A DNA stretch of 64,000 nt from the IMG/VR virus record IMGVR_UViG_3300033996_001333, positions 3,389 to 67,388 of that record. One strand, written 5' to 3'. The notes under the pieces were generated by a model. It searched no databases and was not told where the DNA came from. It saw only the letters and a program-made list of their open reading frames with translations. This DNA comes from a virus. Both the position numbers and the translations under genes were made by a program. Positions within the stretch are counted from its first letter, which is position 1. Each line of letters starts with the position of its first letter. Shown here in pieces: positions 3,131-55,167 of this stretch.

Positions 3131-3138
3131 CCAAACAA

Positions 3139-3154: not shown

Positions 3155-3161
3155 AAGTAAC

Positions 3162-4654: not shown

Positions 4655-5797
4655 ATGACAATTACACGAAAAGAAATTGAAGACGGGATGATCCTGTTTT
4701 GCAAGTCAGGCAGCCACGCCTATGGCCTCAACACCGAGATGTCCGACTTGGACTTTAAGGGAATCTGTGTGGCGCCACAGCGGTTTTACACCACTCTCGA
4801 AACATTTGAGCAAAAGGATAAGGGGTGGGTAGGGGAGCAACAAGACGAGGGTGAGTTCAACTCTAGATTCCCTGAGTTAGATAACTCGGATTCAGTGGTG
4901 TACGGCATTCGCAGGTACCTGAGCTTGTTGCGGTCGCAAAACCCCAACATTTTGGAGATGCTCTGGCAGACTCCCGACAGCTACCTGTACCTTGACTTTC
5001 TGGGGCAGTCGCTAATTGACAACCGGAGGAAGCTAATTTCCAGGAGAATCTCTGGCACATTCGTTCAGTACGCAAGGTCCCAGATCAAGAAAATGGAGAC
5101 TCACCGCAAATGGCTCTTAAACCCTCCAACACGGCGACCGGAGTGGGAGGACTACGGTGTCTCTTCCCCGAGCTTAACCCCGTCTCAAATCGAGTCTTTC
5201 ATCGAGTACTTGTACTTGCTGATTAAAGACAGAATCGAGTACTACCAACCTTCAGTCGAGCTGTACGAGCTTCTCAACGACCGTGTTGATTGGAAAGGAA
5301 TTTTGAAGCAGAGTGTCTTACCGGAGGAGTGCTTCAATGAAACACAGAAAATCACGAGAGCAAGCGATGAGTACATGGCCCTTCTCCACTCAAGCCAACA
5401 GTACCGGTCAGATTTAAAACGGTGGAGTAATTACCAAGATTGGTTGACTAATCGGAATGTGAAGCGATCCGAAATTGAGCGGGCCTGTGGGTACGACGGG
5501 AAGAACGCCAGCCACTGTGTTCGACTTATGAAAATGGCCATTGAGGGAATGCGAACCGGAGAGCTTCTTGTGAATAGAAAGTTGGTTGGGGACGCAGATT
5601 TTCTTCTGGACATTAAGTACGGCAGGATTACGTATGACGAACTAAGCACAATTGTAACTCAGCTCTTTAAGGAGGCTGAGCACGTGGGGAAGAACGAGTG
5701 CGTCTTGCCGAACACGGTAGATGACCAACTCATCAACACTCTCTGTGCTGAGACTGTGGAAAAATTTCAAAGTCTCGGTTGTATTGAGAACCGGTGA
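4655..5797 (+). CDS. pol-beta-type nucleotidyltransferase (PF10127/RlaP-like)
   Basis: Near the N-terminus, GSHAYGLNTEMSDLDFKG matches the GS...DxD nucleotidyltransferase motif. 380 aa. Confidence 0.55.
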   Translation: MTITRKEIEDGMILFCKSGSHAYGLNTEMSDLDFKGICVAPQRFYTTLETFEQKDKGWVGEQQDEGEFNSRFPELDNSDSVVYGIRRYLSLLRSQNPNILEMLWQTPDSYLYLDFLGQSLIDNRRKLISRRISGTFVQYARSQIKKMETHRKWLLNPPTRRPEWEDYGVSSPSLTPSQIESFIEYLYLLIKDRIEYYQPSVELYELLNDRVDWKGILKQSVLPEECFNETQKITRASDEYMALLHSSQQYRSDLKRWSNYQDWLTNRNVKRSEIERACGYDGKNASHCVRLMKMAIEGMRTGELLVNRKLVGDADFLLDIKYGRITYDELSTIVTQLFKEAEHVGKNECVLPNTVDDQLINTLCAETVEKFQSLGCIENR

Positions 5798-8037: not shown

Positions 8038-8039
8038 GC

Positions 8040-8400
8040 GGACAGTCCTACCACACGACATTAAACTGGGTGTAGCTCTGGAAGATAGTGCCCTATACAG
8101 GGGTTCGAATCCCCTCACCTCCATTTGAGAACGTGACCGTCCCTTCTTCAACCTTCCGACTTACTGAGAAGGCAGGGTCACTGTGGGTTAAACTCCCACC
8201 TCTAGTCAAGGGGGTGCCATGGTCTCGCTAGGGTAAAGATGTCGCCTGAGTGAAAGCCGCTTGCATAAGCACAAAATAGACGCTAACAACATCGTCAAAT
8301 TCGAGAGGATTGCCGTTGCCGTTTGAGCAACCGCACTCTGACTCATAACTCGGGGGTTTCGGCCCCCTTACACCGCCAACTTTCCTAGCCAAAACAGCAC
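8040..8400 (+). ncRNA. ssrA: tmRNA (ssrA), circularly permuted two-piece type
   Basis: ORF-free 390-nt region. Acceptor piece: T-arm AGGGGTTCGAATCCCCT plus 3' acceptor strand CACCTCC at 8099-8123. Coding piece: GGGGGTGCCATGGTCTCGCTAGGG at 8210 resembles the tmRNA 5' end GGGGCUG.AAUGGUUUCGACG, and pairs with the 3' strand including a G3-U wobble. The tag ORF at 8282-8326, GCT AAC AAC ATC GTC AAA TTC GAG AGG ATT GCC GTT GCC GTT TGA, encodes (A)ANNIVKFERIAVAV*. Compare the Synechocystis tag ANNIVPFARKAAPVAA. Confidence 0.65.
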
Positions 8401-8428
8401 CCTACACTCCAACCCACGCTGAAACACT

Positions 8429-9779: not shown

Positions 9780-9868
9780 CCCTTGCCCATGGTGCGAGAC
9801 TCTAACCCTTACCTTGGGTCTTATATCCACCCAAGCAAGCCCGCTCAAACAAGAACCATACAAGGAAA

Positions 9869-10730
9869 AATGACAACTTTCGACAAATGCCTCGGAGCCT
9901 TTATTGGCCTTGCGATCGGTGACGCGATGGGTGCGCCAGTGGAGTTCTCTCCACCGGGGACCTTTGAGACCGTCACAGGTTACCGAGCAGGGGGGCCCTT
10001 TAATCTGCCGTCAGGCTACTGGACGGACGACACATCGCAGGCTGTTTGCCTTGCCGAGTCTTTTATTCATTGCAATGGGCAGATCAATCTTGGAGACCAA
10101 ATGCGTCGGTACTCCAACTGGTACGAGTACGGAAGGAACAGCTCAACAGGTGTCTGTTTTGACATCGGCAATGGAACACTTCGTGCAATTGAGACTTTTC
10201 TCGTTGAGGGGTCTTTGAGTCTCTATCCGGAGAATTCGAAAGGAAACGGGTCTTTGATGCGTTTATCCCCCGTTTCTATTGTGTACCACAAGTCAAGTGA
10301 GCAGGACGCTGTAGCAGCGTGTGACGCGTCATCATCAACAACCCATGGCCACTTGGCATCCGACCTATGCAAAGATCTCGGTCGTTTGCTGCACCAATAC
10401 TTAAATGGCACGGGGGGAAAACCTGAAGTCTCGCCGGAGGGAATTGAAAATTCCGGGTACGCACCGAAGTCCTTAAACGCCGCACTCTACCACTTTGGGT
10501 CAACTTCGTCCTTTGAAGAGGCCATCCTGCAGGCTGTGAACTACGGGGACGACTCAGACACGGTTGCTGCGATTACGGGGCAGCTAGCAGGTGCTTACTA
10601 CGGTTACAAGGCTATTCCTAAGCGATGGGTTTCGGGGTTGCACGACAGCGAAAGACTTTTGCTCATAGCGAGCACTTTGTACGACCTTTCGTTTGGGACG
10701 GTTTCCCCCCTTGTTTCTACTCTGAAATAA
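9869..10730 (+). CDS. ADP-ribosylglycohydrolase (ARH/DraG family)
   Basis: GAFIGLAIGDAMGAPVEF, YWTDDTSQ, GNGSLMRLSPV and YGDDSDTVAAITGQLAGAYYG are ARH family signatures. Start taken at MTTFDK. Confidence 0.75.
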
Positions 10731-16426: not shown

Positions 16427-16440
16427 TTTTACCCCGTGCG

Positions 16441-16488
16441 CGGCGGGAAACCGTCCTTTACCCTCGCCCCTAAACAAGCTATAGTAAG
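16441..16488 (+). promoter_or_regulatory. intergenic element copy 6 (GC hairpin in inverted orientation)
   Basis: CGGCGGGAAACCGTCC...CTAAACAAGCTATAGT. Confidence 0.45.
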
Positions 16489-16507
16489 CTCACACCGTAA
16501 AACAACA

Positions 16508-17449
16508 ATGCACGTGACCGAAACTAAAGAGTATCAGAAAACAGAGCCGATTGAGGTTTACTCGAATCGCGACGGACAAAACCTGTACAAGATTTCAAAG
16601 ACCTCCTTTACGTTCAGTGCCGGTGAAAGGCAGGTCCGGTTGCACGACACTCCAACAAATTCGACTGACATTATCGTAGACGCAGACATACACAGCGGAG
16701 AAAGTTTCGCAGAACTTCTTCTGACTCTGTCGGCCATCAAAGACCTTCCTGTGCTGCGAAGTCTACAATTGGACATCCCGTACTTACCTTATAGCCGCCA
16801 AGACCGCCAGTGCGCTGAAGGGGAAGCGTTTTCGCTAAGAACTTTTGTAAAAGCTCTCGCCCCTTATCTTAAGGGAGTGTGCGACCGGGTGTACACATGG
16901 GACGTGCACAGCCACGTTGCAAATGAGCTCTTTCGAACCGAAATCGGCTGCGAGTTCAACAACCTACAACCCCAACTGTTTCTCCAGAAGTTCAAAGACC
17001 GGGGGCAAGAGTTTAGTGCTGAGACAATTGTGATTGCTCCGGATAAAGGTGCAGTCGAAAGAGCAACCCTCGTACAACAAACACTGGGGCTCCACTCTGT
17101 AGTGTACGCTACGAAAGTTCGCAACCCTGAAGACGGGCAAATCCTAAGGACGGAAGTTCCAGAAGACGTCAGTTACAAGGGCAAAAACCTTCTGATTGTG
17201 GACGACATCTGCGATGGCGGTCGCACCTTTATCGAACTCGCCAAGGTGCTACGTCAGTTCGACCCGTCTCGAATTGACCTCTATGTAACTCACGGAATTT
17301 TCTCCAAGGGTTTTAAGGTGTTTGGGAGCTTAATCGACAACTTTTTCGTTGCGAACTTGCTCCCGTATAAAGCCTTTTACCAAGAGTTACCCTCGTACTT
17401 GACCTACCTTCGTACCGAAAACTACCCCACCCCACGCAACCAACCATGA
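16508..17449 (+). CDS. ribose-phosphate pyrophosphokinase homolog (Prs-like, or ADP-ribose pyrophosphokinase Adps-like)
   Basis: IPYLPYSRQDRQ matches MPYxGYARQDR. LIVDDICDGGRT is the PRPP-binding loop. Stop overlaps the next ATG. Confidence 0.75.
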   Translation: MHVTETKEYQKTEPIEVYSNRDGQNLYKISKTSFTFSAGERQVRLHDTPTNSTDIIVDADIHSGESFAELLLTLSAIKDLPVLRSLQLDIPYLPYSRQDRQCAEGEAFSLRTFVKALAPYLKGVCDRVYTWDVHSHVANELFRTEIGCEFNNLQPQLFLQKFKDRGQEFSAETIVIAPDKGAVERATLVQQTLGLHSVVYATKVRNPEDGQILRTEVPEDVSYKGKNLLIVDDICDGGRTFIELAKVLRQFDPSRIDLYVTHGIFSKGFKVFGSLIDNFFVANLLPYKAFYQELPSYLTYLRTENYPTPRNQP

Positions 17450-18960
17450 AAATTTTTGCGCCCCACGCAACCGACTTTTACAAGACAGGACACCCTTCGC
17501 AAAACCCTGAAGGCACCGAAGTAATCTACGCCAACATGACGGCAAGGTCCGACCGTCTGGCGAACATGCCCGCTGACTTCGACCACAAGATCGTCGTGGC
17601 CAACATCCAGGGGACAATGAAATGGATGCTGAGGGATCTTTGGAATGAGACCTTTTTTCAGCAACCCAAGGCCAAGGTGTTGGACAAATACAAGCGGCGA
17701 ATGGACTCCTCGCTCGGAGAAGGTGTTGTCGGCACTGACCACATTGCTGAGCTTCACGACCTGGGTTACATGCCGCTGCATGTGAAGGCACTACCCGAGG
17801 GCAGCCGTGTTAACATCGGAGTGCCGTTTCTGACGGCGCAAAACACACACAATGAGTTTAAGTGGCTGGCCCCGTGGTTAACCAACTATGTCGAAACCGC
17901 CAAGTCGTCTGAGCTGTGGAAGGCCATCAACGTGGCAACCATCGCCTACGAGTTTCGCCGTCTTCTCGACCACTACGCTGAAACCACAGGGAGTAATCCG
18001 CAGTTTGTTGACTTTCAGGGGCACGACTTCTCCGCTCGCGGAGTCGGAGGCATTCACGATGCCGCTGCGCACCAAATCGGCCACCTTTTTTCCTTCAAGG
18101 GCACGGACACAATCCTTTCCATTGATTATTTGGAGGATTACTACGATTGCGGTTCCAATTTCATTGGGGGTAGTATTCCCGCTACGGAACACAGTGTGAC
18201 CTGCCTTGGCGGTCAAAGAAACGAATTAGAGACAATTCGTCGAATTATTACAAAAGTATACCCAACTGGGCCGGTCAGTGTAGTTTTTGACACTTGGAAC
18301 TACTGGGATGCACTGACTGTTATTGCACCCGCACTTAAGGAAGACATCTTAAATCGTCGTCCGAATTCTCAGGGCATCGCTAAGGTCGTATTCCGTCCCG
18401 ACAGTGGTGACCCTGAGAAAATCATCTGCGGTGACGCTGACGCTGAGCCAGGTAGCCGAGAGTACAAAGGTTCGCTTGAGCTTTTATGGGAGGTCTTCGG
18501 AGGAACGGTAAACGAGAAGGGTTTCAAGGTACTGAACCCTCGAGTTGGCTTAATTTACGGCGACTCAATCACTCTTCCACGGGCCAGGGCCATCCTGGAG
18601 CACATGAGGCAGCTTGGGTGGGCGTCCGAAAACATCGTGTTCGGTATCGGTTCCTACACCTATCAATACCATACACGGGACACGTTCGGTATCGCATACA
18701 AAACGACCTGGGGGCAAATTAACGGTGTCGCCGTTGAAACTATGAAGGACCCCATTACGGATCGCGGCACGAAAAAGTCGGCGTTGGGTCTACTGCGAGT
18801 TGAAAAGGATGGGGAGAACTTTGTTCTTCATCAACAGCAGACTCGTGAGCAAGAGCAGCGAGGCGAGCTTCGCACCGTGTTCTTAAACAGCGTGGTTTAC
18901 GGGGAGGATGTAAACTCACTGCCTAACATTCGTACTCGACTTCTCAACCCCGCAGCTTAG
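17446..18960 (+). CDS. nicotinamide phosphoribosyltransferase homolog (Nampt/NadV-like, or Namat-like)
   Basis: 504 aa. N-terminal TDFYKTGH (compare the Nampt TDSYK motif), internal FKGTDT. ATGA overlap with the Prs-like gene. Confidence 0.7.
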   Translation: MKIFAPHATDFYKTGHPSQNPEGTEVIYANMTARSDRLANMPADFDHKIVVANIQGTMKWMLRDLWNETFFQQPKAKVLDKYKRRMDSSLGEGVVGTDHIAELHDLGYMPLHVKALPEGSRVNIGVPFLTAQNTHNEFKWLAPWLTNYVETAKSSELWKAINVATIAYEFRRLLDHYAETTGSNPQFVDFQGHDFSARGVGGIHDAAAHQIGHLFSFKGTDTILSIDYLEDYYDCGSNFIGGSIPATEHSVTCLGGQRNELETIRRIITKVYPTGPVSVVFDTWNYWDALTVIAPALKEDILNRRPNSQGIAKVVFRPDSGDPEKIICGDADAEPGSREYKGSLELLWEVFGGTVNEKGFKVLNPRVGLIYGDSITLPRARAILEHMRQLGWASENIVFGIGSYTYQYHTRDTFGIAYKTTWGQINGVAVETMKDPITDRGTKKSALGLLRVEKDGENFVLHQQQTREQEQRGELRTVFLNSVVYGEDVNSLPNIRTRLLNPAA

Positions 18961-23950: not shown

Positions 23951-24601
23951 GTGACCAAAGCACCCCAACCCATGAAGTCTCCCCCTGAATCAGTTACAGG
24001 AAAACTTTTGCTGAAGCCAGGGGACAGTGTGTTTGTTCCTGGAAAAATACTTAAAAATTCACCCGACGGTCGAACCTGGGGCACTGAAGTTCCTTACCTT
24101 CACTTTCGGAAGAGTCCAGTAAAAGACGGTCTCTACGTTGTGTCCGACATCTGGATGCACCCGAAAGCAACAGACCCGAACGTTCCATCCTCGTACTGCT
24201 ACACTCTGGTAAGAGTCCGTGAGGATCGAACCTGGACAAATGAACGGCGTAATCACAGAACACTAAGAAGCTGCTTCTCCCCGGAAGACATGTCAGAGAC
24301 AAAACTCCCGTACAACTGCCTCGACTGGGACCAGCTCCTTCGAGACCAAGTAGTTACGTCCTACGCGTACACCCCTGGTGAAAAGTTCGACATGGACGAG
24401 TTTAGAAAAGATCTGGGCCAAGTTCTTTACAAGCACAAGGTTACTCTGTCAGTAGACACGAAGTTCTCCGACGACTGGGACGAGCACGGCACAAACCACC
24501 TTGTTGTCCTCGCTAACGGGGAAATAAGGGGTGACCTTGGGTCTGACTTTCCAAAGCGGAGATCAGCGCCAGCCTGGGACAGTGGGAAACGAAATCGCTA
24601 G
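23951..24601 (+). CDS. hypothetical protein
   Basis: 216 aa ORF upstream of the RNA ligase. Confidence 0.5.
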   Translation: MTKAPQPMKSPPESVTGKLLLKPGDSVFVPGKILKNSPDGRTWGTEVPYLHFRKSPVKDGLYVVSDIWMHPKATDPNVPSSYCYTLVRVREDRTWTNERRNHRTLRSCFSPEDMSETKLPYNCLDWDQLLRDQVVTSYAYTPGEKFDMDEFRKDLGQVLYKHKVTLSVDTKFSDDWDEHGTNHLVVLANGEIRGDLGSDFPKRRSAPAWDSGKRNR

Positions 24602-24656
24602 TCCCAACCTTGCCCAGATAAACAAAACTCAACGGTCCCACCCACCTAAAGCTGTC

Positions 24657-25769
24657 ATGGAACCTTTAAACCTGCGCCACTTTCTAATCGACTGGTTAAA
24701 CTACCGGGTCGAGACTGCTTTTGAAGCACTTGCCGAGCACGACATTCGTGTTGCTCGCGACGAACGTTACCCTGCTCTTTTTAACTTGAAGTATGGCAGT
24801 GTAATGGCGGACAAGTCACTACCGATTGTTCGTGCCTGCCGTGGTGCCGTAGTCGAACTTGTTGACGATGGCACGGGCTCCCCGTACTTTCGGCTGGTTG
24901 CGTACGCCTTCGACCGCTTTTTCAACGTTGGCGAGGGGTATGCCGCTGAGATTGATTGGTCCACTGCCCGTGTAGCTGAGAAGTATGACGGGTCTCTGAT
25001 CAAGTTGTTCAACTATAAAGGAGAGTGGTTGGTATCAACATCGGGTTCAGTCGCTGGTTCTTCGGAAGTCGGGACCACGGGTCGCTCCTTCTCCGAGTTG
25101 TTTTGGCACGTTTTTAACGAAGTTGGATATGACCGGGCTGACCTCGACCCTTATTTTGTCTACGTCTACGAGTTGTGCCACAAAGACAACAAAATTGTTG
25201 TAGACTACGAGACTCCCTTACTACCTCTTCTGGCTGTTCGAAGCCGCTTTGACGATCTAAACGAAGTGGATCTCAAGCATTTTGAAAACCGCTTCAACAT
25301 CGCTCAGACCTACGACCTGCGCTCACATGAAGCTGTAACGCAGTTTGTAAACGACTCCTCTCGTGGTACCGCTGAAGGCGTAATTATTGTCGACGGAAAC
25401 GGAAACCGCCAGAAAGACAAGTCCAACGTCTATTGTCAGTTGCACAGGGTTAAAGGAAACGGCGAACCGGATTTCTCCGAGCTTTTCCTGAACGACGACT
25501 TGGAAGAGTTTCTGCTTCACTTTCCCGAGTATCGTGGGGGTTTTGACGTTCACCTGCGTTCCATCGAAGTGATGGAGAGTGCGGTGAGCGAGAACATGAG
25601 GGCTCACAACCATCTTAACCAGAAGGATTTCGCTCAAGCCGTACTTGCCGAGTCAAAAGAACTTTCTGGAGCATGCTTTGCGATTCGATCCGGCAAAGTC
25701 GGATCCTTTGCAGAGTGGCTCGAAGGTTTAACCCCGAAAAAGCTCGACGTTTTGCTCGGAATTTCCTGA
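24657..25769 (+). CDS. RNA ligase, T4 Rnl1-like
   Basis: AEKYDGSLIKLF is nucleotidyltransferase motif I (KxDG), like T4 Rnl1 KEDGSL. 370 aa taken from the internal ATG (MEPLNL). Confidence 0.65.
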   Translation: MEPLNLRHFLIDWLNYRVETAFEALAEHDIRVARDERYPALFNLKYGSVMADKSLPIVRACRGAVVELVDDGTGSPYFRLVAYAFDRFFNVGEGYAAEIDWSTARVAEKYDGSLIKLFNYKGEWLVSTSGSVAGSSEVGTTGRSFSELFWHVFNEVGYDRADLDPYFVYVYELCHKDNKIVVDYETPLLPLLAVRSRFDDLNEVDLKHFENRFNIAQTYDLRSHEAVTQFVNDSSRGTAEGVIIVDGNGNRQKDKSNVYCQLHRVKGNGEPDFSELFLNDDLEEFLLHFPEYRGGFDVHLRSIEVMESAVSENMRAHNHLNQKDFAQAVLAESKELSGACFAIRSGKVGSFAEWLEGLTPKKLDVLLGIS

Positions 25770-39159: not shown

Positions 39160-40281
39160 ATGGCAAACATCGAACGCAAACTCGCCTCCGTCCGACAAGT
39201 AACGGAGATTCGCCCAATCCCGGACGCCGACGCAATTGAGTGCGCCATCGTGGGAGGTGGCTGGCCCGTTGTCGTGAAGAAGGGGGAGTTCCAAGCTGGC
39301 GATCTTGCAATCTACTTCGAGATTGACTCGTGGATCCCCCACGGGCTTGCCCCGTTCTTGTCAAAGGGGAAGGAACCAAGGGAGTACAATGGAGTGAAGG
39401 GGGAAAGGTTGAAAACCGTCCGGCTCCGTGGCCAAGTCTCTCAGGGTCTCCTACTTCGCTTCTCGGACATCTCTCCAAGCTTCTACGTTGTTTCGCTAGC
39501 TGAACCTTATGGGGGGAGGGGATCTCTCCGAGTTGATGAGTGTGTGTGGGAAGAAGGCGAAGATTTCACTCTAGAGTTTGGCATTCAGAAATGGGAGGCC
39601 ACGGTCCCCGCTTGCCTTGCCGGACAAGTGCGTGGAAACTTCCCGAGTTTTTTGGTTAAGAGTGACCAAGAGAGATGTCAAAATATCGTGAGAAAAATCT
39701 TCGAGGAGCACAAGGAGGAAACCTACGAAGTATCCTTGAAGCTGGACGGGTCTTCCTGCACCATTTATGCCCGAGACGGGGACAGTGGCGTGTGTAGCCG
39801 CAACCTAGACCTTAAGGAAACAGAAGGAAACAGCTTCTGGAAGGCTGCTCGAGAACAAGGTGTAATCGACGCCTTGCTGTCCTATAATAAGGAAACCGGT
39901 CGCAACATTGCTCTTCAGATGGAGCTGTGCGGTGAAGGAATTCAAGGAAACCAAGAAGGAATCAAAGGACAACGGCTTTTTCTTTTTGACGTCTTCGACA
40001 TCGACACTCAGACCTACATGAAGCCGGGGCAGCGACTTGTTTTCCTTGACGAGGTTTTGACTGAGCTTGGGGCCAAGTTGGAACACACTCCCATTATTGA
40101 CCTTCGAACTTACGTTGCCGGACGATTCGCCAACCTTGACGAGCTACTTGCTTATGCAGATGGTCCGTCTATGAACCCAAAAGTCAAGCGTGAAGGTGTG
40201 GTGTTCAAATCGTACGACTCCGCGTTCTCCTTCAAGGCCATTAGCAACGAGTGGTTGCTGTGGAAAGGGAAGAAAGGGTGA
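39160..40281 (+). CDS. RNA ligase, DraRnl/DRB0094-like (Rnl5 family)
   Basis: N-terminal KLASVRQVTEIRPIPDADAIECAIVGGGWPVVVKKGEFQAGDLAIYFEIDSWIP resembles the DRB0094-family N-domain. Motif I candidate VSLKLDGSS (KxDG). Confidence 0.55.
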   Translation: MANIERKLASVRQVTEIRPIPDADAIECAIVGGGWPVVVKKGEFQAGDLAIYFEIDSWIPHGLAPFLSKGKEPREYNGVKGERLKTVRLRGQVSQGLLLRFSDISPSFYVVSLAEPYGGRGSLRVDECVWEEGEDFTLEFGIQKWEATVPACLAGQVRGNFPSFLVKSDQERCQNIVRKIFEEHKEETYEVSLKLDGSSCTIYARDGDSGVCSRNLDLKETEGNSFWKAAREQGVIDALLSYNKETGRNIALQMELCGEGIQGNQEGIKGQRLFLFDVFDIDTQTYMKPGQRLVFLDEVLTELGAKLEHTPIIDLRTYVAGRFANLDELLAYADGPSMNPKVKREGVVFKSYDSAFSFKAISNEWLLWKGKKG

Positions 40282-45985: not shown

Positions 45986-46489
45986 ATGGGACTTGACTCC
46001 TACCTTTACGCTGAGAAATACCTTGGCAACTACGACCATTCGTCCGACGAAGAAAAAGAAACGTATAACAAGATTGTAACAGCTTTGGGTCTGACCGACT
46101 TTGCAGCCGTTGGGCGCAACAGTCTTTACACGCGAGTCGAAGTTGCTTACTGGCGTAAAGCCAACCACATTCACAAGTTTTTTGTGGATCTATCTGAGGG
46201 AGAAGACAACTGCGAAGACATTGATGTTGGCCGAGACGACTTGGTAGAACTTCTCTCTCGGTGCAAAAAACTCCTCGAAAGTAGGGACACCCCTGCGGAA
46301 ACAAACACAGTAAACCCTGCGGAGATCCTACCCACCGAAGGGGGATTCTTCTTCGGCTCGACAGACTACGGTGAGAATTACTACGCCGACCTTGAACACA
46401 CAGTCAAAGTCCTGGAGAAAGTCCTCAACCACCCTGCGATTCCTGAAGGGGACTACAGTTGGAGATTCGTGTACCGGGCCTCCTGGTAG
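45986..46489 (+). CDS. hypothetical protein
   Basis: 167 aa ORF. Confidence 0.5.
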   Translation: MGLDSYLYAEKYLGNYDHSSDEEKETYNKIVTALGLTDFAAVGRNSLYTRVEVAYWRKANHIHKFFVDLSEGEDNCEDIDVGRDDLVELLSRCKKLLESRDTPAETNTVNPAEILPTEGGFFFGSTDYGENYYADLEHTVKVLEKVLNHPAIPEGDYSWRFVYRASW

Positions 46490-46648
46490 TTCCCAGGATT
46501 TACTGCGTTAGGTTTTAACTATGCTTGGGTGTCGATGGCTCAGCAACCTTTGAGGATTTCCTCCACCATTTGACCATCGAGTCCTTACCCATAGCGCAAA
46601 GTTGATACAGCTTTAATTTGTATCCAAACAAACAATCAACTTGAGAAA

Positions 46649-48133
46649 ATGACAACGCCATCCTTTTTAAACGCACTCGAAAACGAGTTTAACCAAACCA
46701 TCACCGCTAACGGTGCAAAGGCATACAAGTCCACCGAGTCTAAGTGCCTGGACCTCTTTGGAAAGATTGCAGCTTGCCGTGACAACATCAGCGAAGCAAC
46801 TCGCCTATTCAATCTTGCTTATGCCGAAAACCCTGAGACCGCAACTCGAATCCTGTTTTGGGCACGCGACATTCGTGGGGGCCAGGGAGAGCGAAAGATC
46901 TTTCGAGAAGTTTTTAAGGAACTCGTCCTCAATGACGCTGCAATTGGTGCCAGGCTAGTTAGCCTGATTCCACAGTACGGTCGCTGGGATGATGTGGTAG
47001 CCCTCGACGGTACCTTAGTTTGGGGCATCGCACTCGAAGCAATTAAGGCACAACTGAACGCCGACCTAAATACGGAAGTTGGAAAGTCAGTGTCACTTCT
47101 GGCAAAGTGGCTGCCTTCCATTAACGCTTCCAGCCAGGACTCTAAGAGGATTGGCCGAAAAATTGCCGAAGCAATGGGTTGGACCGAGAGACAGTACCGC
47201 AAGGCACTGACTGCCCTCAGGACCCAAGTCAAAATTGTTGAGCAGCCAATGTGTGCTCGTGAGTGGGAAAGCATTGACTATAGCAAGTTGCCTTCTCGGG
47301 CCGGCTTTATGTACCGTAAAGCTTTCGTCAAGCGCGACGGCAACCGCTACCAATCCTACCTTGACTCGGTAGAAAAAGGTGAGGCAAAAATCAATGCCGG
47401 TACGATCTACCCTTACGAGATCGTGCACAAGTACCTTTACGGGGGCGATAGGAGTGATCAAACCTTAAACTTAATGTGGGAAGCTCTACCCAACTACATG
47501 GAAGGAGAGCAGCTGAACGGCCTGGTAATTGCCGACGTCTCAGGATCAATGGGAAACAACGGCGGCATGCCCATGGCGGTTTCAATCTCGCTGGCGATGT
47601 ACATCGCTGAGCGTAACACCGGGGCATGGAAGGATAAGTTCCTAACCTTCTCCGGAAGTCCGCAGTTGCAGTCGGTTACAGGGAGAAACGTTGCTGAGCG
47701 TGTTAGTAACCTTAGTCGGGCCGACTGGGGTGCGAATACAGACCTGCAAGCAGTCTTCAATCTTGTGTTGGCTACCGCAACGAGGAACCATATTCCTGAG
47801 GGGGAAATGCCGCGCAAGCTCATCATTGTCTCAGACATGCAGTTTGATTCCTGCTGCAGAAACAACTCAGTGACAAACTTTGAGGCGGTGCGAATCAAGT
47901 ATGCTCAAGCAGGGTATTCCTTGCCGGAACTTGTCTTCTGGAATGTTAGCTCTAGCGGCAACGTACCTATGAAAATGCATGATACGGGGACTTGCCTGGT
48001 CTCCGGATGCAGCCCTTCAATCCTGAAAGCTGTGCTTACTGGCGGGGTAATTACGCCTGTAGGGGTTATGCGTGACGCTGTTTACACTGAAAGGTACGAC
48101 GCTGTCGGTGCCGTATTTGCTGAAGGAGCATGA
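46649..48133 (+). CDS. vWA/MIDAS protein with N-terminal helical TROVE/DUF2828-like region (Ro60-like architecture)
   Basis: C-terminal LVIADVSGSMGNNGGMPMAVSISLAMYIAE carries the vWA MIDAS motif DxSGS. The helical N-terminal 300 aa and the 494-aa size fit DUF2828/Ro60-like proteins. Confidence 0.5.
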   Translation: MTTPSFLNALENEFNQTITANGAKAYKSTESKCLDLFGKIAACRDNISEATRLFNLAYAENPETATRILFWARDIRGGQGERKIFREVFKELVLNDAAIGARLVSLIPQYGRWDDVVALDGTLVWGIALEAIKAQLNADLNTEVGKSVSLLAKWLPSINASSQDSKRIGRKIAEAMGWTERQYRKALTALRTQVKIVEQPMCAREWESIDYSKLPSRAGFMYRKAFVKRDGNRYQSYLDSVEKGEAKINAGTIYPYEIVHKYLYGGDRSDQTLNLMWEALPNYMEGEQLNGLVIADVSGSMGNNGGMPMAVSISLAMYIAERNTGAWKDKFLTFSGSPQLQSVTGRNVAERVSNLSRADWGANTDLQAVFNLVLATATRNHIPEGEMPRKLIIVSDMQFDSCCRNNSVTNFEAVRIKYAQAGYSLPELVFWNVSSSGNVPMKMHDTGTCLVSGCSPSILKAVLTGGVITPVGVMRDAVYTERYDAVGAVFAEGA

Positions 48134-48315
48134 TCTGGATCAAATTGCCGGGTGCCCTCTGCATCGTTCTGCAAACCGTTTTCATAACTTTGAAGGTAGC
48201 GGGTCAGGTTTCCTGGCCCTGGCTCACAGTGCTTTCACCGACCCTTGTGCCAATTTTTCTACTTGGGTCGGGAGCCCTTTGGATGATTCTTCAACTACTT
48301 TCGCATGAGAAATAA
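48130..48315 (+). CDS. small membrane protein
   Basis: Two hydrophobic helices. ATGA overlap with the upstream gene. Confidence 0.4.
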   Translation: MIWIKLPGALCIVLQTVFITLKVAGQVSWPWLTVLSPTLVPIFLLGSGALWMILQLLSHEK

Positions 48316-48318
48316 CTA

Positions 48319-48507
48319 ATGTTTGAGAATCTCGCAGTTTCGTTAATGACAGCCCAGGGTCTCCTCCTCGGGTTGAAATTAACGGGGCAAATAACCTGGC
48401 CATGGCTCTCAGTGTTTAGCCCAATCGTAATCTTAGGCTCTGTGTCCATTTTGTCACTCATTCTGCTTCTGCTACTGTCGAATTTGTATGCAAGGTCAAC
48501 CAAGTGA
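48319..48507 (+). CDS. small membrane protein (paralog of the previous)
   Basis: VSLMTAQGLLLGLKLTGQITWPWLSVFSPIVILGS resembles ITLKVAGQVSWPWLTVLSPTLVPIFLLGS in the preceding ORF. Confidence 0.4.
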   Translation: MFENLAVSLMTAQGLLLGLKLTGQITWPWLSVFSPIVILGSVSILSLILLLLLSNLYARSTK

Positions 48508-48760
48508 ATCGCATAGCGAGTGGGCTCCCTTTTCCTCTTCTTTGCGGGAGGAGTACGACAGTCTTGTAGAAAACTTACGAAGTCGTGGCCTAGACAATGT
48601 TATTTCTTGGGAGAACTTTCTAAGAGACTTCACACCCTTAGTTGGACACGAAATACCAACCGAGTACCGCCATTACGACGTAAGAGTGTCGGAAGATGGT
48701 GAAGTTATCGAGTTGTACAAGGGGACTCGACGAGTAACAAATTTGAGCCAGGGCGGTTAA
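48488..48760 (+). CDS. hypothetical protein
   Basis: 90 aa ORF. Confidence 0.4.
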   Translation: MQGQPSESHSEWAPFSSSLREEYDSLVENLRSRGLDNVISWENFLRDFTPLVGHEIPTEYRHYDVRVSEDGEVIELYKGTRRVTNLSQGG

Positions 48761-48808
48761 CCGCCCCTAGCGGTTCGGTTTTCACCCTTTCCTTCGCTCA
48801 GCAAAACC
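48751..48808 (+). promoter_or_regulatory. intergenic element copy 23 (double motif)
   Basis: GGGCGGTTAACCGCCCCTAGCGGTTCGGTTTTCACCCTTTCCTTCGCTCAGCAAAACCGCTATAGT. Confidence 0.55.
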
Positions 48809-48822
48809 GCTATAGTTCACGT

Positions 48823-49272
48823 ATGGAAAACACCCCAGTATACAGCATCTTCTCGGGGATACCTCCTTTCTCAGTTAGCCCTAAAGCAATGTGGAAGTTT
48901 AACAAACCCCTGAGTCAATTGCGCTCCTTTCGTGACAGTTTACTGAGGGACGACCAACACACCTACGCCGCAAGGCTTGGAGAAATTGTGGAGTCCCTCG
49001 AAGAGTGGTATGAAGGTTCCATGGAGTCGAGCGAAGAGGTAGAGGGGGCTGAGGGAGTAGGTGGCTTTGAGGAGTTAAGCAAAGTGTACAGAGAGGCAAA
49101 CTCAATCTACGAGTCTAAGCTCTCCGATGAAGCCAAGTATGACCTTATTTTCTCCAAGAAGATATCGCAAAAAGTCCCCTTCTCGTGGTACGACCCTGAC
49201 ACATCTTACGAGGAGGACGTAAGGTACTTTATGAACGCCTTTCGAGAGTACATGGGTGATTCTCCGCGATAG
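48823..49272 (+). CDS. hypothetical protein
   Basis: 149 aa ORF. Confidence 0.5.
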   Translation: MENTPVYSIFSGIPPFSVSPKAMWKFNKPLSQLRSFRDSLLRDDQHTYAARLGEIVESLEEWYEGSMESSEEVEGAEGVGGFEELSKVYREANSIYESKLSDEAKYDLIFSKKISQKVPFSWYDPDTSYEEDVRYFMNAFREYMGDSPR

Positions 49273-49399
49273 GTGCCGTGCGGGATCTCTGCTTGAGTCC
49301 GTTTACCCCTAGCACTTCCAACCTATGATACGGATGTGGAGCTCAAGGTTCCACTCCTCGCCCCCTTAACCTCCACCCAGCAAAGCGGTGCGAAAAAAC

Positions 49400-49521
49400 C
49401 GAAGAGTAGCCAAGTGGTTAGGCAGCGGTAATGCAAAAAGATTACCTAGCTTAGGTAATTCAGCAACTACCCAATACGCAAAAGGAACCGCCATACGCAA
49501 GTTCGAATCTTGCCTCTTCGA
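49400..49521 (+). tRNA. tRNA-like gene with about 50-nt insertion in the anticodon region
   Basis: Acceptor CGAAGAG/CTCTTCG, D-arm GCC-AAGTGGTTA-GGC, T-arm GCAAG-TTCGAAT-CTTGC, variable CATAC. The anticodon-stem-like helix GCGGT/ACCGC encloses 57 nt. Anticodon undetermined. Confidence 0.4.
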
Positions 49522-49683
49522 CTTTGCCTTCGGCAAACATAGATAGTTCAGCGATTTACCCTAACTCTCTTGGGAAAAACAACTATCTAGCTAAACCCAA
49601 ACTTTATCCCCATAATGATAGTAAAAGACCTTTATTCTCGATCCAAGTAATTTGCCAAGCAAACTTAGATAGAACAAAAAGAT

Positions 49684-49929
49684 ATGACACCCACTGAAGC
49701 AGGTTTTGACGGTGACAAGGGCATACGACTAGGAATGACAAACATGCAGGGCGGTGGATTGTACCGGCTTCCACGGAGTAAAACTGCACCCACAAACTCC
49801 CAAAACAAATCGTTAAAGAACATGCTGGTCTGGCATTACCCTGACGACAGCGACTCTAAGCTCTTGTTCTGTAACTCTGACGGAGAGTGGTTTAACTTAA
49901 CCTTTGAACCCATTAACATTGGAGAGTAG
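49684..49929 (+). CDS. hypothetical protein
   Basis: 81 aa ORF between the tRNA-like genes. Confidence 0.4.
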   Translation: MTPTEAGFDGDKGIRLGMTNMQGGGLYRLPRSKTAPTNSQNKSLKNMLVWHYPDDSDSKLLFCNSDGEWFNLTFEPINIGE

Positions 49930-49985
49930 CTCAAGGGCTAAGAAAAACTTTCAGTATCGCTCCAGGTAGTTTTCGGAGCAAATAC

Positions 49986-50097
49986 GGGACCGTAGCTCAA
50001 CTGGTAGAGCACGAAAAGTTATCTTGACAAAGATACATCAGCAATTAAATTACCTCTTTTAAAGGCGCGGTTGCAGGTTCGAGTCCTGCCGGTCCCA
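49986..50097 (+). tRNA. tRNA-like gene with about 40-nt insertion in the anticodon region
   Basis: Acceptor GGGACCG/CGGTCCC, TA, D-arm GCTC-AACTGGTA-GAGC, T-arm GCAGG-TTCGAGT-CCTGC. 61 nt lie between the D-arm and the T-arm where 21-22 are expected. Confidence 0.4.
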
Positions 50098-50111
50098 TTC
50101 CCATTTTTGCT

Positions 50112-50654
50112 ATGACTAACAGCAAGACCTCATTTCTCCTAACTCAAAACCACCTGAAACTGCTGAGAAGAATGCACGTTGGGTGGAGCAACTGTGAATT
50201 CGGTGCTCCGGAAATAGACCCGAAAAGACCGTATGGCAACAGTTGGGTTATCGGAGACATACACGAAATTCTGACTGGAGAAGACCTAGAAGAATTGACC
50301 GAGTCACAGGAAGAGGAGTACAGGCAACTTCACGAACAAACTCAAACAGCCCTCCAAATCATTCTCTCTACGGGGAAGTTTGAGGAAGGTTTGTACATGC
50401 TTACTGAACCGTATTCTTCTACATGGGTGCGGAAAGCCATGATCAATTCCATGGCCTACAAAGACTACACAGCCAGTATGGTCTTCGATACTGAAGACAA
50501 GATTATTGTTGGTCGTGTCCTAGACATCGACGACATTATCTCGTTTCACGGCGAAACGATAGCTGAATTTGAATCCAACTTTCATGCAGCCATCGAAGAC
50601 TATCTAGCCGCATCCCAGGAACTTGGCTCTTCGCCGGAAAAGCCCGCAAGTTAA
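50112..50654 (+). CDS. hypothetical protein flanked by tRNA 3'-end repeats
   Basis: 180 aa. Begins 15 nt after the tRNA-like gene and is followed by a 28-nt copy of the tRNA 3' end. Confidence 0.5.
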   Translation: MTNSKTSFLLTQNHLKLLRRMHVGWSNCEFGAPEIDPKRPYGNSWVIGDIHEILTGEDLEELTESQEEEYRQLHEQTQTALQIILSTGKFEEGLYMLTEPYSSTWVRKAMINSMAYKDYTASMVFDTEDKIIVGRVLDIDDIISFHGETIAEFESNFHAAIEDYLAASQELGSSPEKPAS

Positions 50655-54580: not shown

Positions 54581-54652
54581 GCCCTGGTAGCTCAGTGGAA
54601 GAGCACTGTCCTTCTAAGACACCGGTCGTGGGTTCGAATCCCCCTCAGGGCG
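54581..54652 (+). tRNA. tRNA-Arg (anticodon UCU)
   Basis: GCCCTGG-TA-GCTC-AGTGGAA-GAGC-A-CTGTC-CTTCTAA-GACAC-CGGTC-GTGGG-TTCGAAT-CCCCC-TCAGGGC-G. 72 nt, one mismatch each in the anticodon and T stems. Confidence 0.6.
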
Positions 54653-54696
54653 TCGGTTGCCTTTGCAGCCACACTAAACAACAACAACAATACAAA

Positions 54697-54861
54697 ATGG
54701 CAAATCTTTCTCTAGTTGATCGTGCCGCACGAATTAGCAACAAAAGCCCCAGGGGAGCAAAGCTCCTTCTGAAGCTCAGCGAGGCAATCACCGGCACTGA
54801 AGTTCAAAGGGCCCTTGACGAATTTGACTTGGCGTTCGGAGTTCAAACTCCCTCTGTCTGA
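54697..54861 (+). CDS. small hypothetical protein (54 aa)
   Basis: MANLSLVDRAARISNK... with an A-rich start context. Within track ORF 54556. Confidence 0.35.
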   Translation: MANLSLVDRAARISNKSPRGAKLLLKLSEAITGTEVQRALDEFDLAFGVQTPSV

Positions 54862-54903
54862 GCTTTACCTTGGGTTCCATCCCACACGGTGGTTCCCTTT
54901 CCT

Positions 54904-54992
54904 GGGCGTGTGGTGTACGGTGCACAGGGACCCTTATACAGTCCTCTCCGGCAGATTACCGGCTAGTTAGGGTTCGACTCCCTACACGCCTA
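54904..54992 (+). tRNA. class II-like tRNA (long variable arm), anticodon uncertain (possibly UAU)
   Basis: Acceptor GGGCGTG/CACGCCT, T-arm AGGG-TTCGACT-CCCT, variable hairpin CCGG-CAGATTA-CCGG. The anticodon stem GGACC/AGTCC has a 31-39 mismatch. 89 nt. Confidence 0.45.
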
Positions 54993-55082
54993 CTTAGTTT
55001 CAAGTCCTCGAAAACTCGTTAAAGAACACACCCACAGGTCATATCCGGTGAACGACACAGGAGTGGCCCACCACGGTGACAA

Positions 55083-55167
55083 GGAAGAGTGGCTGAGCGG
55101 CCGAAAGCAGCAGCTTCGAACACTGTAGAGGGTTAAACCTCCGGGGGTTCAAATCCCCCCTCTTCCG
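55083..55167 (+). tRNA. tRNA-Ser (anticodon CGA)
   Basis: GGAAGAG-TG-GCTGAGCGGCCGAAAGC, a class II D-arm aligning to E. coli tRNA-Ser. Anticodon loop TTCGAAC, variable arm GAGGGTTAAACCTC, T-arm GGGGG-TTCAAAT-CCCCC, acceptor CTCTTCC. Confidence 0.6.

What the first reader, a model, noticed from the sequence alone, without database searches (positions are those of the whole stretch)
46649..48133. Ro60/TROVE-like vWA protein encoded next to the tRNA and tRNA-like cluster
A 494-aa protein combines a long alpha-helical N-terminal region with a C-terminal vWA domain carrying a MIDAS DVSGSMG motif. This is the architecture of Ro60 orthologs (Rsr) and DUF2828 proteins.

Bacterial Rsr binds tRNA-like Y RNAs and is often encoded with RtcB RNA ligase. 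Here the gene sits about 1.3 kb upstream of a run of tRNA or tRNA-like genes (49400-50097), two of which carry unusual inserts, and the replicon is rich in RNA-repair enzymes.

The tRNA-like RNAs could be Y-RNA analogues rather than decoding tRNAs.
Basis: inference. Interest (0 to 1): 0.6.

Follow-up and report, generated by a model that had tools for sequence, protein, structure and literature searches.

The report
Ro60-like phage protein with module-bearing tRNAs
A phage gene for a ring-shaped RNA-binding protein of the Ro60 type is always followed by unusual tRNA genes that carry the same conserved 40-50-base insert in the anticodon stem, which gives this widespread but uncharacterised protein family a concrete candidate RNA partner to test.

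Summary

Only two tRNA-like genes lie downstream (49400-49521 and 49986-50097), not a run. Both carry a conserved module: a 6-bp hairpin UAYCUW/WAGRUA followed by CAGCAAUUA. It is inserted in or next to the 5' strand of the anticodon stem.

I found 47 distinct elements of this kind on about 18 different tRNA bodies. All 71 distinct element-gene pairs are on the same strand as a DUF2828 gene, and 70 of 71 lie downstream of it (median 596 nt).

With the insert removed they read as normal tRNAs; element B is Lys-UUU. The discriminator base tracks the anticodon (permutation P about 0.008), so many look chargeable. They are not YrlA-type Y RNAs.

A preprint already proposed Y-RNA-like tRNAs next to a Ro60-like protein in Felixounavirus Bas63 (gp130, probably a homolog). 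The new element here is the module. The best reading is a Ro-like protein/tRNA cassette for tRNA handling or counter-defence. Binding is inferred, not shown.

The parts
46649..48133 (+). Gene for the 494-aa DUF2828/DUF7788 protein with a Ro60 fold (helical ring plus vWA domain)
46649..47503 (+). N-terminal alpha-helical region (about residues 1-285), structurally equivalent to the TROVE/HEAT ring. Contains the invariant RDIRGGxGER (73-82) and GRWDD (111-115) motifs.
47519..48052 (+). vWA domain (residues 291-468) with a complete MIDAS (D296, S298, S300, T364, D396). The DVSGSMG motif lies at 47534-47554.
   Evidence: Pfam DUF7788, E 2.7e-50. hhalign against a TROVE-protein alignment: 89.8% probability, E 1.8e-6, 191 columns. 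Invariant columns.
48130..48315 (+). 61-aa two-TM protein whose start overlaps the DUF2828 stop codon (ATGA). An accessory gene, not a core part.
   Evidence: Conserved 0-15 nt after the gene in most relatives of 75% identity or more, absent in the 62-65% clade.
48319..48507 (+). 62-aa paralog of the small two-TM protein (shared GQ[IV][ST]WPW motif)
   Evidence: tblastn cross-matches between the two ORFs and across loci.
49400..49521 (+). Type A tRNA-like gene (acceptor CGAAGAG). The anticodon stem GCGGU/ACCGC is intact and encloses 57 nt: a 50-nt insert (49430-49479) followed by AAAAGGA (49480-49486, A33).
   Evidence: Rfam tRNA, 44.7 bits. Missed by ARAGORN. Parse. Conserved in relatives.
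49443..49469 (+). Module core of element A: hairpin UACCUA-GCU-UAGGUA (49443-49457), linker AUU, motif CAGCAACUA (49461-49469)
49986..50097 (+). Type B tRNA gene (acceptor GGGACCG, discriminator A). The anticodon stem is split: C27 G28, then a 39-nt insert (50014-50052), then C29 C30 U31. The loop is CUUUUAA (50056-50062; anticodon UUU at 50058-50060).
   Evidence: Rfam tRNA, 48.5 bits. Parse, and ARAGORN call as tRNA-Lys(ttt) after in-silico removal of the insert. RNAalifold on 9 variants.
50020..50047 (+). Module core of element B: hairpin UAUCUU-GACA-AAGAUA (50020-50035), linker CAU, motif CAGCAAUUA (50039-50047)
24531..25769 (+). Context: Rnl1-type RNA ligase (possible sealing enzyme; any link to the cassette is inferred only)
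   Evidence: Pfam RNA_lig_T4_1, E 3.1e-14.
39160..40281 (+). Context: second RNA ligase (PHA02142 OB domain plus RNA_ligase). Lies 2-6 kb upstream of the DUF2828 gene in relatives.
   Evidence: Pfam. Synteny in L001, L003 and L005.
4655..5797 (+). Context: RlaP, an RNA-repair-pathway nucleotidyltransferase
   Evidence: Pfam PF10127, E 2.5e-18.

Best explanation
The gene and the two RNA genes form one conserved cassette. The protein is a Ro60-fold ring (helical TROVE-like ring closed by a MIDAS-bearing vWA domain) of the DUF2828 family. The RNAs are phage tRNAs with a conserved module bulging out of the 5' strand of the anticodon stem. The module runs: A-rich tract, 6-bp hairpin UAYCUW/WAGRUA, 3-4 nt linker, CAGCAAUUA, A/U-rich tract.

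I propose that the protein recognises this module, as Ro60 recognises the conserved stem of Y RNAs encoded beside it. The resulting RNP would handle these particular tRNAs during infection. It could hold them as protected pro-forms out of reach of host anticodon nucleases. It could also present them to the phage's end-healing and ligase enzymes, so that the phage keeps decoders for A-ending codons (Lys-UUU here).

Shown: the fold, the module, its covariation and the tight gene-RNA linkage. Inferred: physical binding. Speculative: whether the module is excised or retained, and the counter-defence role. The counter-defence idea is by analogy with Bas63 gp130, which counters the ppl system.

For: Linkage: in protein-retrieved loci every oversized tRNA hit lies downstream of the gene. 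A protein-independent pattern scan of IMG/VR found 49 tRNA-embedded modules, nearly all in loci with a DUF2828 homolog of 58-99% identity, plus one at 37%. 71 of 71 distinct pairs are on the same strand, 70 of 71 are downstream, and the median distance is 596 nt. The other tRNAs of the window (54581-55167) lack the module.

Module under constraint: the core is 86% identical between tRNA bodies whose acceptor stems are 33% identical. Hairpin pairs 3 and 6 covary with 0 and 1 mismatches in 36 distinct modules.

The split stem is real: 37 of 47 elements parse, against a mean of 1.9 for a random 3' strand.

Precedents: Ro60 partner RNAs are encoded next to the gene in bacteria and phages (PMC4201824, PMC12135203). 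DUF2828 genes adjoin tRNA arrays in 5 of 10 sampled phage clades. Bas63 gp130 is Ro60-like, sits directly upstream of tRNAs and counters the ppl defence (PMC11482910).
Against: No binding data exist for any DUF2828 protein. The linkage could reflect conserved synteny within one phage lineage, because the pairs are not phylogenetically independent. One module-tRNA (L128) has no DUF2828 gene within its 14.8-kb locus. Distant DUF2828 clades (43% identity or less) have no such module, and some have no tRNA nearby (Crossroads, nt-1, Ah1, Fnu1), so the protein cannot depend on this module in general. The module resembles neither the Ro-binding GGUCCGA nor the GNCGAA motif. The N-terminal ring shows no sequence-level similarity to TROVE.
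Confidence: 0.42

Rival explanations
1. The inserts are a new class of short, protein-dependent tRNA introns. The RNAs are ordinary decoders once the 38-56-nt module is cut out and the halves are sealed by the phage RNA ligases. The DUF2828 protein is a general RNA quality-control or counter-defence factor that merely shares the 'RNA neighbourhood'. At most it acts as a chaperone and has no specific module recognition.
For: With the insert removed, 39 of 47 elements are called as 70-74-nt tRNAs by ARAGORN. 24 of 37 have U33 and 31 of 37 have a purine at 37. Discriminator and anticodon agree with bacterial identity rules in 16 of 22 distinct combinations (P = 0.0075). The anticodons are mostly those that read A-ending codons, as is typical of phage tRNAs (the codon-usage point rests on general knowledge). 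The same module sits at about the same position in roughly 18 tRNA bodies, as introns do. The window encodes two RNA ligases, RlaP and a phosphoesterase.
Against: No endonuclease candidate was identified. No protein-spliced tRNA intron is known in bacteria or phages (general knowledge). No conserved splice-junction sequence or bulge-helix-bulge was seen. Some members have A33, G33 or C33, or 8-9-nt loops, including the window's element A. The strict same-strand downstream linkage to DUF2828 would be left unexplained.
Confidence: 0.25
2. One reading: the RNAs are non-decoding Y-RNA analogues. The tRNA body recruits tRNA-binding enzymes, the enlarged anticodon arm binds the Ro-like protein, and the RNAs never enter the ribosome.
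For: A 40-50-nt bulge in the anticodon stem is hard to reconcile with ribosome binding (inference). The architecture is a circular permutation of YrlA, in which the Ro-binding element emerges from the anticodon-stem position of a tRNA-like domain (PMC4201824). Element A has A33 and a class I body with a 'Leu' anticodon. Nearly identical bodies carry different triplets at 34-36, e.g. CCU, UAC and UCC on the [A/U]GGGGAA body.
Against: Discriminator-anticodon coherence suggests selection for charging: G73 with Asn and Asp, U73 with Gly. Element B is a canonical tRNA-Lys apart from the insert. There is no Rfam Y-RNA or YrlA match and no GNCGAA motif.
Confidence: 0.15
3. The co-location is only genome organisation, and the elements are decaying pseudo-tRNAs hit by a small mobile insertion. 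The cassette has no joint function.
For: Cyanophage B3's copy is annotated 'tRNA-Pseudo'. Phage accessory regions often cluster tRNAs with RNA-metabolism genes (general knowledge). Some members have aberrant loops.
Against: The cloverleaf arms and the split stem keep pairing through compensatory changes. The module core is as conserved as the T-loop while the protein diverges from 99% to 58% identity. Order and strand are invariant. No copies of the module were found outside tRNAs in these phages or among the cellular-genome matches returned, which a mobile element would be expected to leave.
Confidence: 0.08

Closest known systems
Ro60/Rsr with Y RNAs (YrlA/YrlB), including phage versions (mycobacteriophage cluster C, Thermus phage phiLo)
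   Different: There is no sequence-level TROVE match; only the vWA part is detectably homologous. The RNA topology is the reverse of YrlA: the ends lie in a normal acceptor stem and the special element emerges from the anticodon stem. There is no GNCGAA or GGUCCGA motif. The RNAs keep an anticodon loop and identity-consistent discriminators.
DUF2828/DUF7788 = PHROG 850 'RNA-binding protein' / SEA-PHAGES 'Ro-like RNA binding protein' (e.g. Bas63 gp130 by inference, LeBron gp53, Felix O1-like, A511-like, KVP40-like phages)
   Same: The window protein is a bona fide member (Pfam above cut-off, PHROG E 2.5e-149). It shows the same adjacency to tRNA genes seen in Felixounavirus, Tsamsavirus, Pecentumvirus and Enterococcus phages. 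Bas63 gp130 has already been compared with Ro60, and its neighbouring tRNAs have been suggested to be Y RNAs. That gp130 belongs to this family is inferred from its position and description, not checked on its sequence.
   Different: In those clades the neighbouring tRNAs are ordinary; the 'tRNA-OTHER' entries are class II tRNAs. The conserved hairpin-CAGCAAUUA module was found only in the cyanophage-like clade of the window, plus one locus (L104) whose homolog is 37% identical.
tRNA introns (cyanobacterial group I introns in tRNA-Leu/fMet; archaeal bulge-helix-bulge introns at non-canonical positions)
   Same: A conserved intervening sequence interrupts many different tRNA genes at a similar position, and the exons reconstitute a canonical cloverleaf.
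   Different: The insert is 38-56 nt with no group I core and no Rfam intron hit. It lies in the 5' strand of the anticodon stem (27/28 to 31/32), not in the loop. No BHB motif and no splicing endonuclease gene were recognised. Splicing has not been demonstrated.
Phage tRNA repair and anticodon-nuclease evasion (T4 Pnkp/Rnl1 versus PrrC; T5 tRNA variants versus PARIS and retron nucleases; the Salmonella rsr-yrlBA-rtcBA operon)
   Same: The genomic theme is the same: phage tRNAs, RNA ligases and a Ro-type protein together. The Lys, Asn and Thr anticodons are frequent nuclease targets (general knowledge).
   Different: No nuclease-resistance mechanism based on a stem insertion is known. No experimental link exists here.

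Membership tests
DUF2828/DUF7788 (PF11443 + PF25043; PHROG 850) | Pfam matches above the curated cut-offs for both domains | tested here: met
   DUF7788 171.1 bits (cut-off 27.1) and DUF2828 126 bits (cut-off 29).
DUF2828/DUF7788 (PF11443 + PF25043; PHROG 850) | Full-length match to the phage family profile | tested here: met
   phrog_850, E 2.5e-149, residues 6-484 against profile positions 4-475 of 476. 698 of 702 phage records cover at least 80% of the query.
Ro60/TROVE (PF05731 + PF25045) | Significant sequence match to the TROVE domain model | tested here: not met
   No PF05731 hit at E up to 1. The profile against PDB TROVE chains gives E about 0.5. hhalign against a 27-sequence TROVE alignment covers only residues 252-456, the vWA part.
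Ro60/TROVE (PF05731 + PF25045) | Fold: an alpha-helical (HEAT-like) ring closed by a vWA domain | tested here: met
Ro60/TROVE (PF05731 + PF25045) | MIDAS motif (DxSxS...T...D) in the vWA domain | tested here: met
   D296, S298, S300, T364 and D396 are invariant in 52 sequences.
Ro60/TROVE (PF05731 + PF25045) | Binds a Y RNA or misfolded RNA | not testable with these tools
   Needs RIP/CLIP or EMSA. Only genomic linkage is available.
YrlA-type bacterial Y RNA | Encoded within about 4 kb of the Ro-type gene on the same strand | tested here: met
   71 of 71 pairs on the same strand, median 596 nt downstream. In the window the distances are 1.27 and 1.85 kb.
YrlA-type bacterial Y RNA | 5' and 3' ends form the Ro-binding stem carrying GNCGAAN0-1G; the tRNA-like acceptor stem is closed by a loop | tested here: not met
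   The ends form a standard 7-bp acceptor stem with covariation. The only Rfam hits at E up to 5 are tRNA. The CGAAG at the 5' end of element A is only its acceptor stem.
YrlA-type bacterial Y RNA | tRNA-like D and T arms | tested here: met
   Rfam tRNA 44.7 and 48.5 bits. 10 of 16 arm pairs show compensatory changes.
Canonical decoding tRNA | Contiguous 5-bp anticodon stem with a 7-nt loop (U33, purine 37) | tested here: not met
   As encoded, B has a split stem with a 39-nt insert, and A has 57 nt between its stem strands with A33. After in-silico removal of the insert, B is canonical (CUUUUAA).
Canonical decoding tRNA | Aminoacylation identity elements consistent with the anticodon | tested here: inconclusive
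   16 of 22 distinct body/anticodon/discriminator combinations fit E. coli-type rules (permutation P = 0.0075). The sample is small and not phylogenetically independent. Charging itself is not testable here.
Group I intron in tRNA | A ribozyme core of 200 nt or more (P1-P9), inserted in the anticodon loop | tested here: not met
   The inserts are 38-56 nt and lie in the stem's 5' strand. No Rfam intron match.

The most novel reading that the evidence does not exclude
The module is the first protein-dependent (non-group-I) tRNA intron class in the bacterial/phage world. The Ro60-fold DUF2828 protein is its dedicated recognition platform. On this reading the phage makes 'pro-tRNAs' that host anticodon nucleases cannot recognise, and activates them by excision and re-ligation with its own RNA ligases.
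Probability: 0.15. Interest if true: 0.9.

Novelty: new variant of a known kind. Interest (0 to 1): 0.62.

Why it matters
DUF2828 is one of the most widespread phage 'RNA-binding' proteins. It is in 702 of 50,697 phage records and has thousands of metagenomic homologs. One probable homolog counters a bacterial defence system, yet no RNA partner is known for the family.

This cassette supplies a specific, sequence-defined candidate partner, with clear mutational handles in the hairpin and the CAGCAAUUA motif. That makes the question 'what does a phage Ro-like protein bind and do?' directly testable.

Separately, tRNA genes carrying a conserved non-group-I insert in the anticodon stem are not described in the literature I could search. 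Either they are spliced, which would be a new RNA-processing pathway in phage-infected bacteria, or they work with the insert in place, which would be a new kind of tRNA-derived RNA. The practical point is that tRNA finders miss these genes or label them as pseudogenes.

Tried and rejected
1. Sequence-only links to Ro60. phmmer against PDB found nothing. The profile against PDB gave E about 0.5 to TROVE chains. hhalign against one TROVE protein aligned only 42 MIDAS columns. Only structure comparison and an alignment-to-alignment hhalign were informative.

2. My first reading of B3's 'CUGCAAU' as a Cys anticodon loop, and of CAGCAAY as an anticodon-like loop, was wrong. It is the module motif. 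The true loop lies downstream.

3. Known ribozymes, introns or Y RNAs in the inserts: no Rfam family other than tRNA at E up to 5.

4. Pairing between the insert's 5' flank and the CAGCAAUUA motif. UAAUU/AAUUA pairs in types A and C but not in B, D or E, so it is not a general feature.

5. Analogous odd tRNAs next to DUF2828 in Felixounavirus and Tsamsa. These are ordinary class II tRNAs.

6. A cellular origin for the module. The scan of one genome per species returned 120 hits, none tRNA-embedded. The Nostocales enrichment is conserved coding sequence.

7. Promoter and terminator scan of 46400-50300: at chance level.

8. The small membrane protein overlapping the stop codon as a core partner: rejected, because it is absent in the 62-65% clade.

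9. NCBIfam and PADLOC: no hits.

10. The Burroughs and Aravind 2016 RNA-repair paper, which may discuss this family, could not be retrieved.

11. I did not confirm Bas63 gp130's family membership by sequence. It is inferred from its described position and from the gene being present in all 251 matching Ounavirinae records.
Full report
**The observation**

The ORF at 46649-48133 (+) encodes 494 aa. An essentially identical protein (99%, 494 aa) has been called on independent contigs. Pfam places it in DUF7788 (residues 291-468, E 2.7e-50) and DUF2828 (E 2.3e-36). PHROG 850, labelled 'RNA-binding protein', matches end to end (E 2.5e-149). The DVSGSMG motif is a MIDAS motif: D296, S298, S300, T364 and D396 are invariant in a 52-sequence alignment spanning 34-87% identity.

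The family is very large. There were more than 7,797 hits among the candidates scored. It occurs in 702 phage records from Felixounavirus, Listeria, Mycobacterium, Vibrio, Staphylococcus, Enterococcus, Bacillus and other phages. Depositors already call it 'RNA-binding protein', 'Ro-like RNA binding protein', 'vWFA protein' or 'DUF2828'. NCBIfam and PADLOC have no model for it.

**Is it Ro60-like?**

Sequence alone does not show it.
- The TROVE Pfam model gives no hit at E up to 1.
- phmmer finds no solved relative.
- The family profile touches solved TROVE chains only at E about 0.5, through the MIDAS segment.

Structure does show it. An AlphaFold2 model built on the 52-sequence alignment is confident (mean pLDDT 88.6, pTM 0.89).
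- Foldseek against the PDB puts nine Ro60/TROVE entries first, aligned over about 520-560 columns (E 2.9e-7 to 5.4e-4). TM is 0.47-0.54 for eight of them and 0.29 for apo human Ro60. Everything below matches only the vWA domain at TM about 0.2.

I also built a bona fide TROVE alignment around mycobacteriophage McGee gp233, which is Pfam TROVE plus vWA_Ro60. hhalign between the two alignments gives 89.8% probability and E 1.8e-6 over 191 columns. These columns run from the last ring helix through the whole vWA domain.

So the protein is a structural homolog of Ro60. Its vWA half is detectably homologous to Ro60's, and its ring has diverged beyond sequence recognition. It is a member of DUF2828, not of Pfam TROVE.

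**The RNAs**

ARAGORN finds no tRNA at 49400-50097. Its tRNAs are at 54581-55167. The Rfam tRNA model finds two matches, at 49400-49521 (122 nt) and 49986-50097 (112 nt). Each has 52-57 unaligned nucleotides in the anticodon arm. Nothing else in 44000-50200 matches any Rfam family at E up to 5. So there are two elements, not a run.

The 464 nt between them belong to a variable insertion. It is 464-1259 nt long in the window's close relatives, but the two elements are only 105-127 nt apart in relatives at 74-78% protein identity. It carries an 81-codon ORF whose substitutions are biased to third codon positions.

**A conserved module**

Relatives retrieved through the protein all carry oversized tRNA matches (110-128 nt) downstream of the gene. 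These include cyanophage B3, where the element is annotated 'tRNA-Pseudo-GCA'.

All of them share one insert design: an A-rich tract, a 6-bp hairpin UAYCUW/WAGRUA, a 3-4 nt linker, CAGCAAUUA, and an A/U-rich tract.

In 36 distinct modules the two hairpin positions that my search pattern left free covary.
- Pair 3: C-G 8, U-A 24, U·G 4, C·A 0.
- Pair 6: A-U 14, U-A 20, C-G 1, one mismatch.

A pattern scan of the whole IMG/VR collection, independent of any protein, found 113 module matches. Of these, 49 are followed by a T-loop. From all loci I extracted 47 distinct elements on about 18 different acceptor stems.

Between elements whose acceptor stems are only 33% identical, the module core is 86% identical, the same as the T-loop at 85%. 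That figure is somewhat inflated because the elements were ascertained with a pattern.

**Where the module sits**

In most elements the 5' strand of the anticodon stem is interrupted between positions 27 and 32. Element B of the window reads A26, C27 G28, a 39-nt insert, C29 C30 U31, the loop CUUUUAA, then AGGCG.

With position 27 fixed by the D stem, 37 of 47 elements give a perfect 5-bp split stem plus a 7-nt loop. A random 3' strand gives a mean of 1.9 (maximum 6), and sliding the window by 2 nt or more gives 0-2. All five pairs show several covarying pair types. RNAalifold on each group independently recovers the cloverleaf, the module hairpin and the short stem-loop. The acceptor, D and T arms show compensatory changes in 10 of 16 pairs.

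Element A of the window differs. Its stem GCGGU/ACCGC is intact and encloses 57 nt: a 50-nt insert followed by AAAAGGA, which has A at position 33.

**Decoders or mimics?**

With the insert removed in silico, 39 of 47 elements are called by ARAGORN as 70-74-nt tRNAs. They include Lys-UUU, Asn-GUU, Thr-UGU, Pro, Arg, Val, Gly, Met, Trp and Asp. 24 of 37 have U33 and 31 of 37 have a purine at 37.

The discriminator base follows the anticodon according to bacterial identity rules in 16 of 22 distinct combinations (permutation P = 0.0075). Examples are G73 with Asn and Asp, and U73 with Gly. The rules come from general knowledge, and the sample is small and not phylogenetically independent.

This argues that many of these RNAs are, or recently were, chargeable tRNAs, and element B fits tRNA-Lys. 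Against a simple decoder reading:
- A 40-50-nt bulge in the anticodon stem is hard to reconcile with ribosome binding.
- Several members have A33, G33 or C33, or 8-9-nt loops.
- Nearly identical bodies carry different triplets at positions 34-36.

The RNAs are not YrlA-like. Their ends form an ordinary acceptor stem, and there is no GNCGAA motif. Formally the architecture is a circular permutation of YrlA, in which the Ro-binding element emerges from the anticodon-stem position of a tRNA-like domain (PMC4201824).

**Linkage to the protein**

Across all loci holding both a gene and an element, 71 of 71 distinct pairs are on the same strand. 70 of 71 elements lie downstream, with a median distance of 596 nt.

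Among loci retrieved through the protein alone at 62% identity or more, all have at least one element. L003 and L022 were missed by my strict regular expression but do contain one.

The order is always A then B, with a type C element first in some phages. In the 62-65% clade the elements follow the gene directly, with no intervening ORF.

One locus with a 37%-identical homolog (L104) has a module-tRNA about 250 nt from the gene, on the upstream side. One element (L128) has no DUF2828 gene within its 14.8-kb locus.

A scan of one genome per prokaryotic species returned 120 matches. None is tRNA-embedded and none lies beside DUF2828.

The ordinary tRNAs of the window, 4.5 kb further on, lack the module.

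In more distant phage clades the module is absent. Even so, the gene adjoins or sits inside a normal tRNA array in 5 of 10 sampled clades: B3, Si3, Tsamsa, Listeria AG20 (with an RtcB ligase 1.2 kb away) and Enterococcus VRE9_4. It does not in Crossroads, nt-1, Ah1 and Fnu1. In Staphylococcus phage S-CoN_Ph9 the nearest tRNA is 2.3 kb away.

**What is already known**
- True TROVE Ro60 proteins of bacteria and phages bind Y RNAs encoded next to them (PMC4201824, PMC12135203).
- A comparative study of jumbo phages noted ROT/TROVE proteins with a tRNA-like partner among their RNA-repair genes (PMC7824862).
- The PhageMaP preprint is the most relevant. It reports that Felixounavirus Bas63 gp130 is structurally similar to Ro60 and lies directly upstream of the tRNA stretch. 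The authors suggest some of those tRNAs may be Y RNAs, and they show that gp130 counters the ppl defence system (PMC11482910). The gene is present in all 251 matching Ounavirinae records, and in phage Si3 it sits directly upstream of the tRNAs. I therefore infer that gp130 is a DUF2828 homolog, but I did not check its sequence.
- LeBron gp53, annotated 'Ro-like RNA-binding protein', is moderately toxic when overexpressed (PMC13148394).
- I found no description of the hairpin-CAGCAAUUA module, or of short inserts in the anticodon stem of phage tRNAs.

**Interpretation**

The best-supported reading is a conserved cassette: a Ro60-fold protein plus the tRNAs that display its probable binding module. 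Its role would be handling phage tRNAs in a genome heavily invested in RNA repair and translation. The window also encodes two RNA ligases, RlaP, a phosphoesterase, EF-Ts and a tmRNA.

Binding is inferred from linkage and from the Ro/Y-RNA precedent. Whether the module is excised (an intron) or retained (an RNP handle or shield) is open. I give the RNP reading 0.42, a protein-independent intron reading 0.25, a pure Y-RNA mimic 0.15 and coincidence or decay 0.08.

**Verdict**

The protein itself is ordinary in the sense of belonging to a known, already named family, and the Y-RNA idea has been published for a probable homolog. What is new and worth following is the conserved module in the linked tRNAs. 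It turns a vague 'RNA-binding protein' annotation into a testable protein-RNA pair. If the module is spliced, it would be a new kind of tRNA intron.

Noticed in passing
window 8034-8417 (+): The phage encodes a permuted (two-piece) tmRNA. ARAGORN predicts the tag ANNIVKFERIAVAV, and Rfam tmRNA_permuted scores 67.9 bits. Together with an EF-Ts homolog at 3093-3770 (Pfam EF_TS, E 6e-30), this shows unusual investment in translation rescue and elongation.
   Followed up: no
window 54904-54993 (+); also L001 17060-17148, L003 19540-19630, L005 18488-18579: A 89-92-nt 'tRNA-Ile(UAU)' with a long extra arm is called by ARAGORN but not by Rfam at the gathering threshold. It is conserved in relatives. 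A class II-like Ile tRNA would be unusual.
   Followed up: no
window 48130-48315 and 48319-48507 (+): Two paralogous two-TM proteins of about 60 aa (GQ[IV][ST]WPW motif). The first overlaps the DUF2828 stop codon (ATGA). They are conserved right after the gene in most relatives of 75% identity or more, and absent in the 62-65% clade.
   Followed up: yes
window 49522-49985 (ORF 49684-49929, +): The spacer between the two tRNA-like genes is a variable insertion (105-1259 nt among relatives). It carries an 81-codon ORF whose substitutions are biased to third codon positions, so it is probably a small gene rather than RNA.
   Followed up: partly
L009 1461-2012 (Listeria phage AG20): A ROOL RNA match (90.1 bits, below the gathering score of 99.1, E 6e-17) lies about 1 kb upstream of the DUF2828 gene, between tRNA genes. 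An RtcB 'tRNA splicing ligase' lies 1.2 kb downstream. This is another large structured RNA in the same neighbourhood.
   Followed up: no
L003 11946 and 12357: Extra CAGCAAUC motifs preceded by short hairpins occur downstream of the DUF2828 gene and outside any recognisable tRNA body. They may be free-standing versions of the module.
   Followed up: no
L128 264-725 and about 3545-3660: The only module-bearing tRNA found without a DUF2828 gene in its locus lies about 2.8 kb downstream of a TnpB/Cas12f-like fragment (OrfB_IS605 plus the TNB domain).
   Followed up: partly
window 9783-10730 and 16436-18960 (+): An ADP-ribosylglycohydrolase, a PRPP synthetase and a nicotinate phosphoribosyltransferase are encoded here, forming a NAD-salvage and ADP-ribose-removal set of the kind that counters NAD-depleting or ADP-ribosylating defences. 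Relatives also carry a NADAR gene near the RNA ligase (L001, L005).
   Followed up: no
type C elements, e.g. L001 11755-11872, L021 5793-5910, L025 5779-5896: Nearly identical tRNA bodies carry different triplets at positions 34-36 (CCU, UAC, UCC; also 8-nt loops), and the discriminator changes with them (A, A, U). This looks like rapid anticodon switching on one scaffold.
   Followed up: partly
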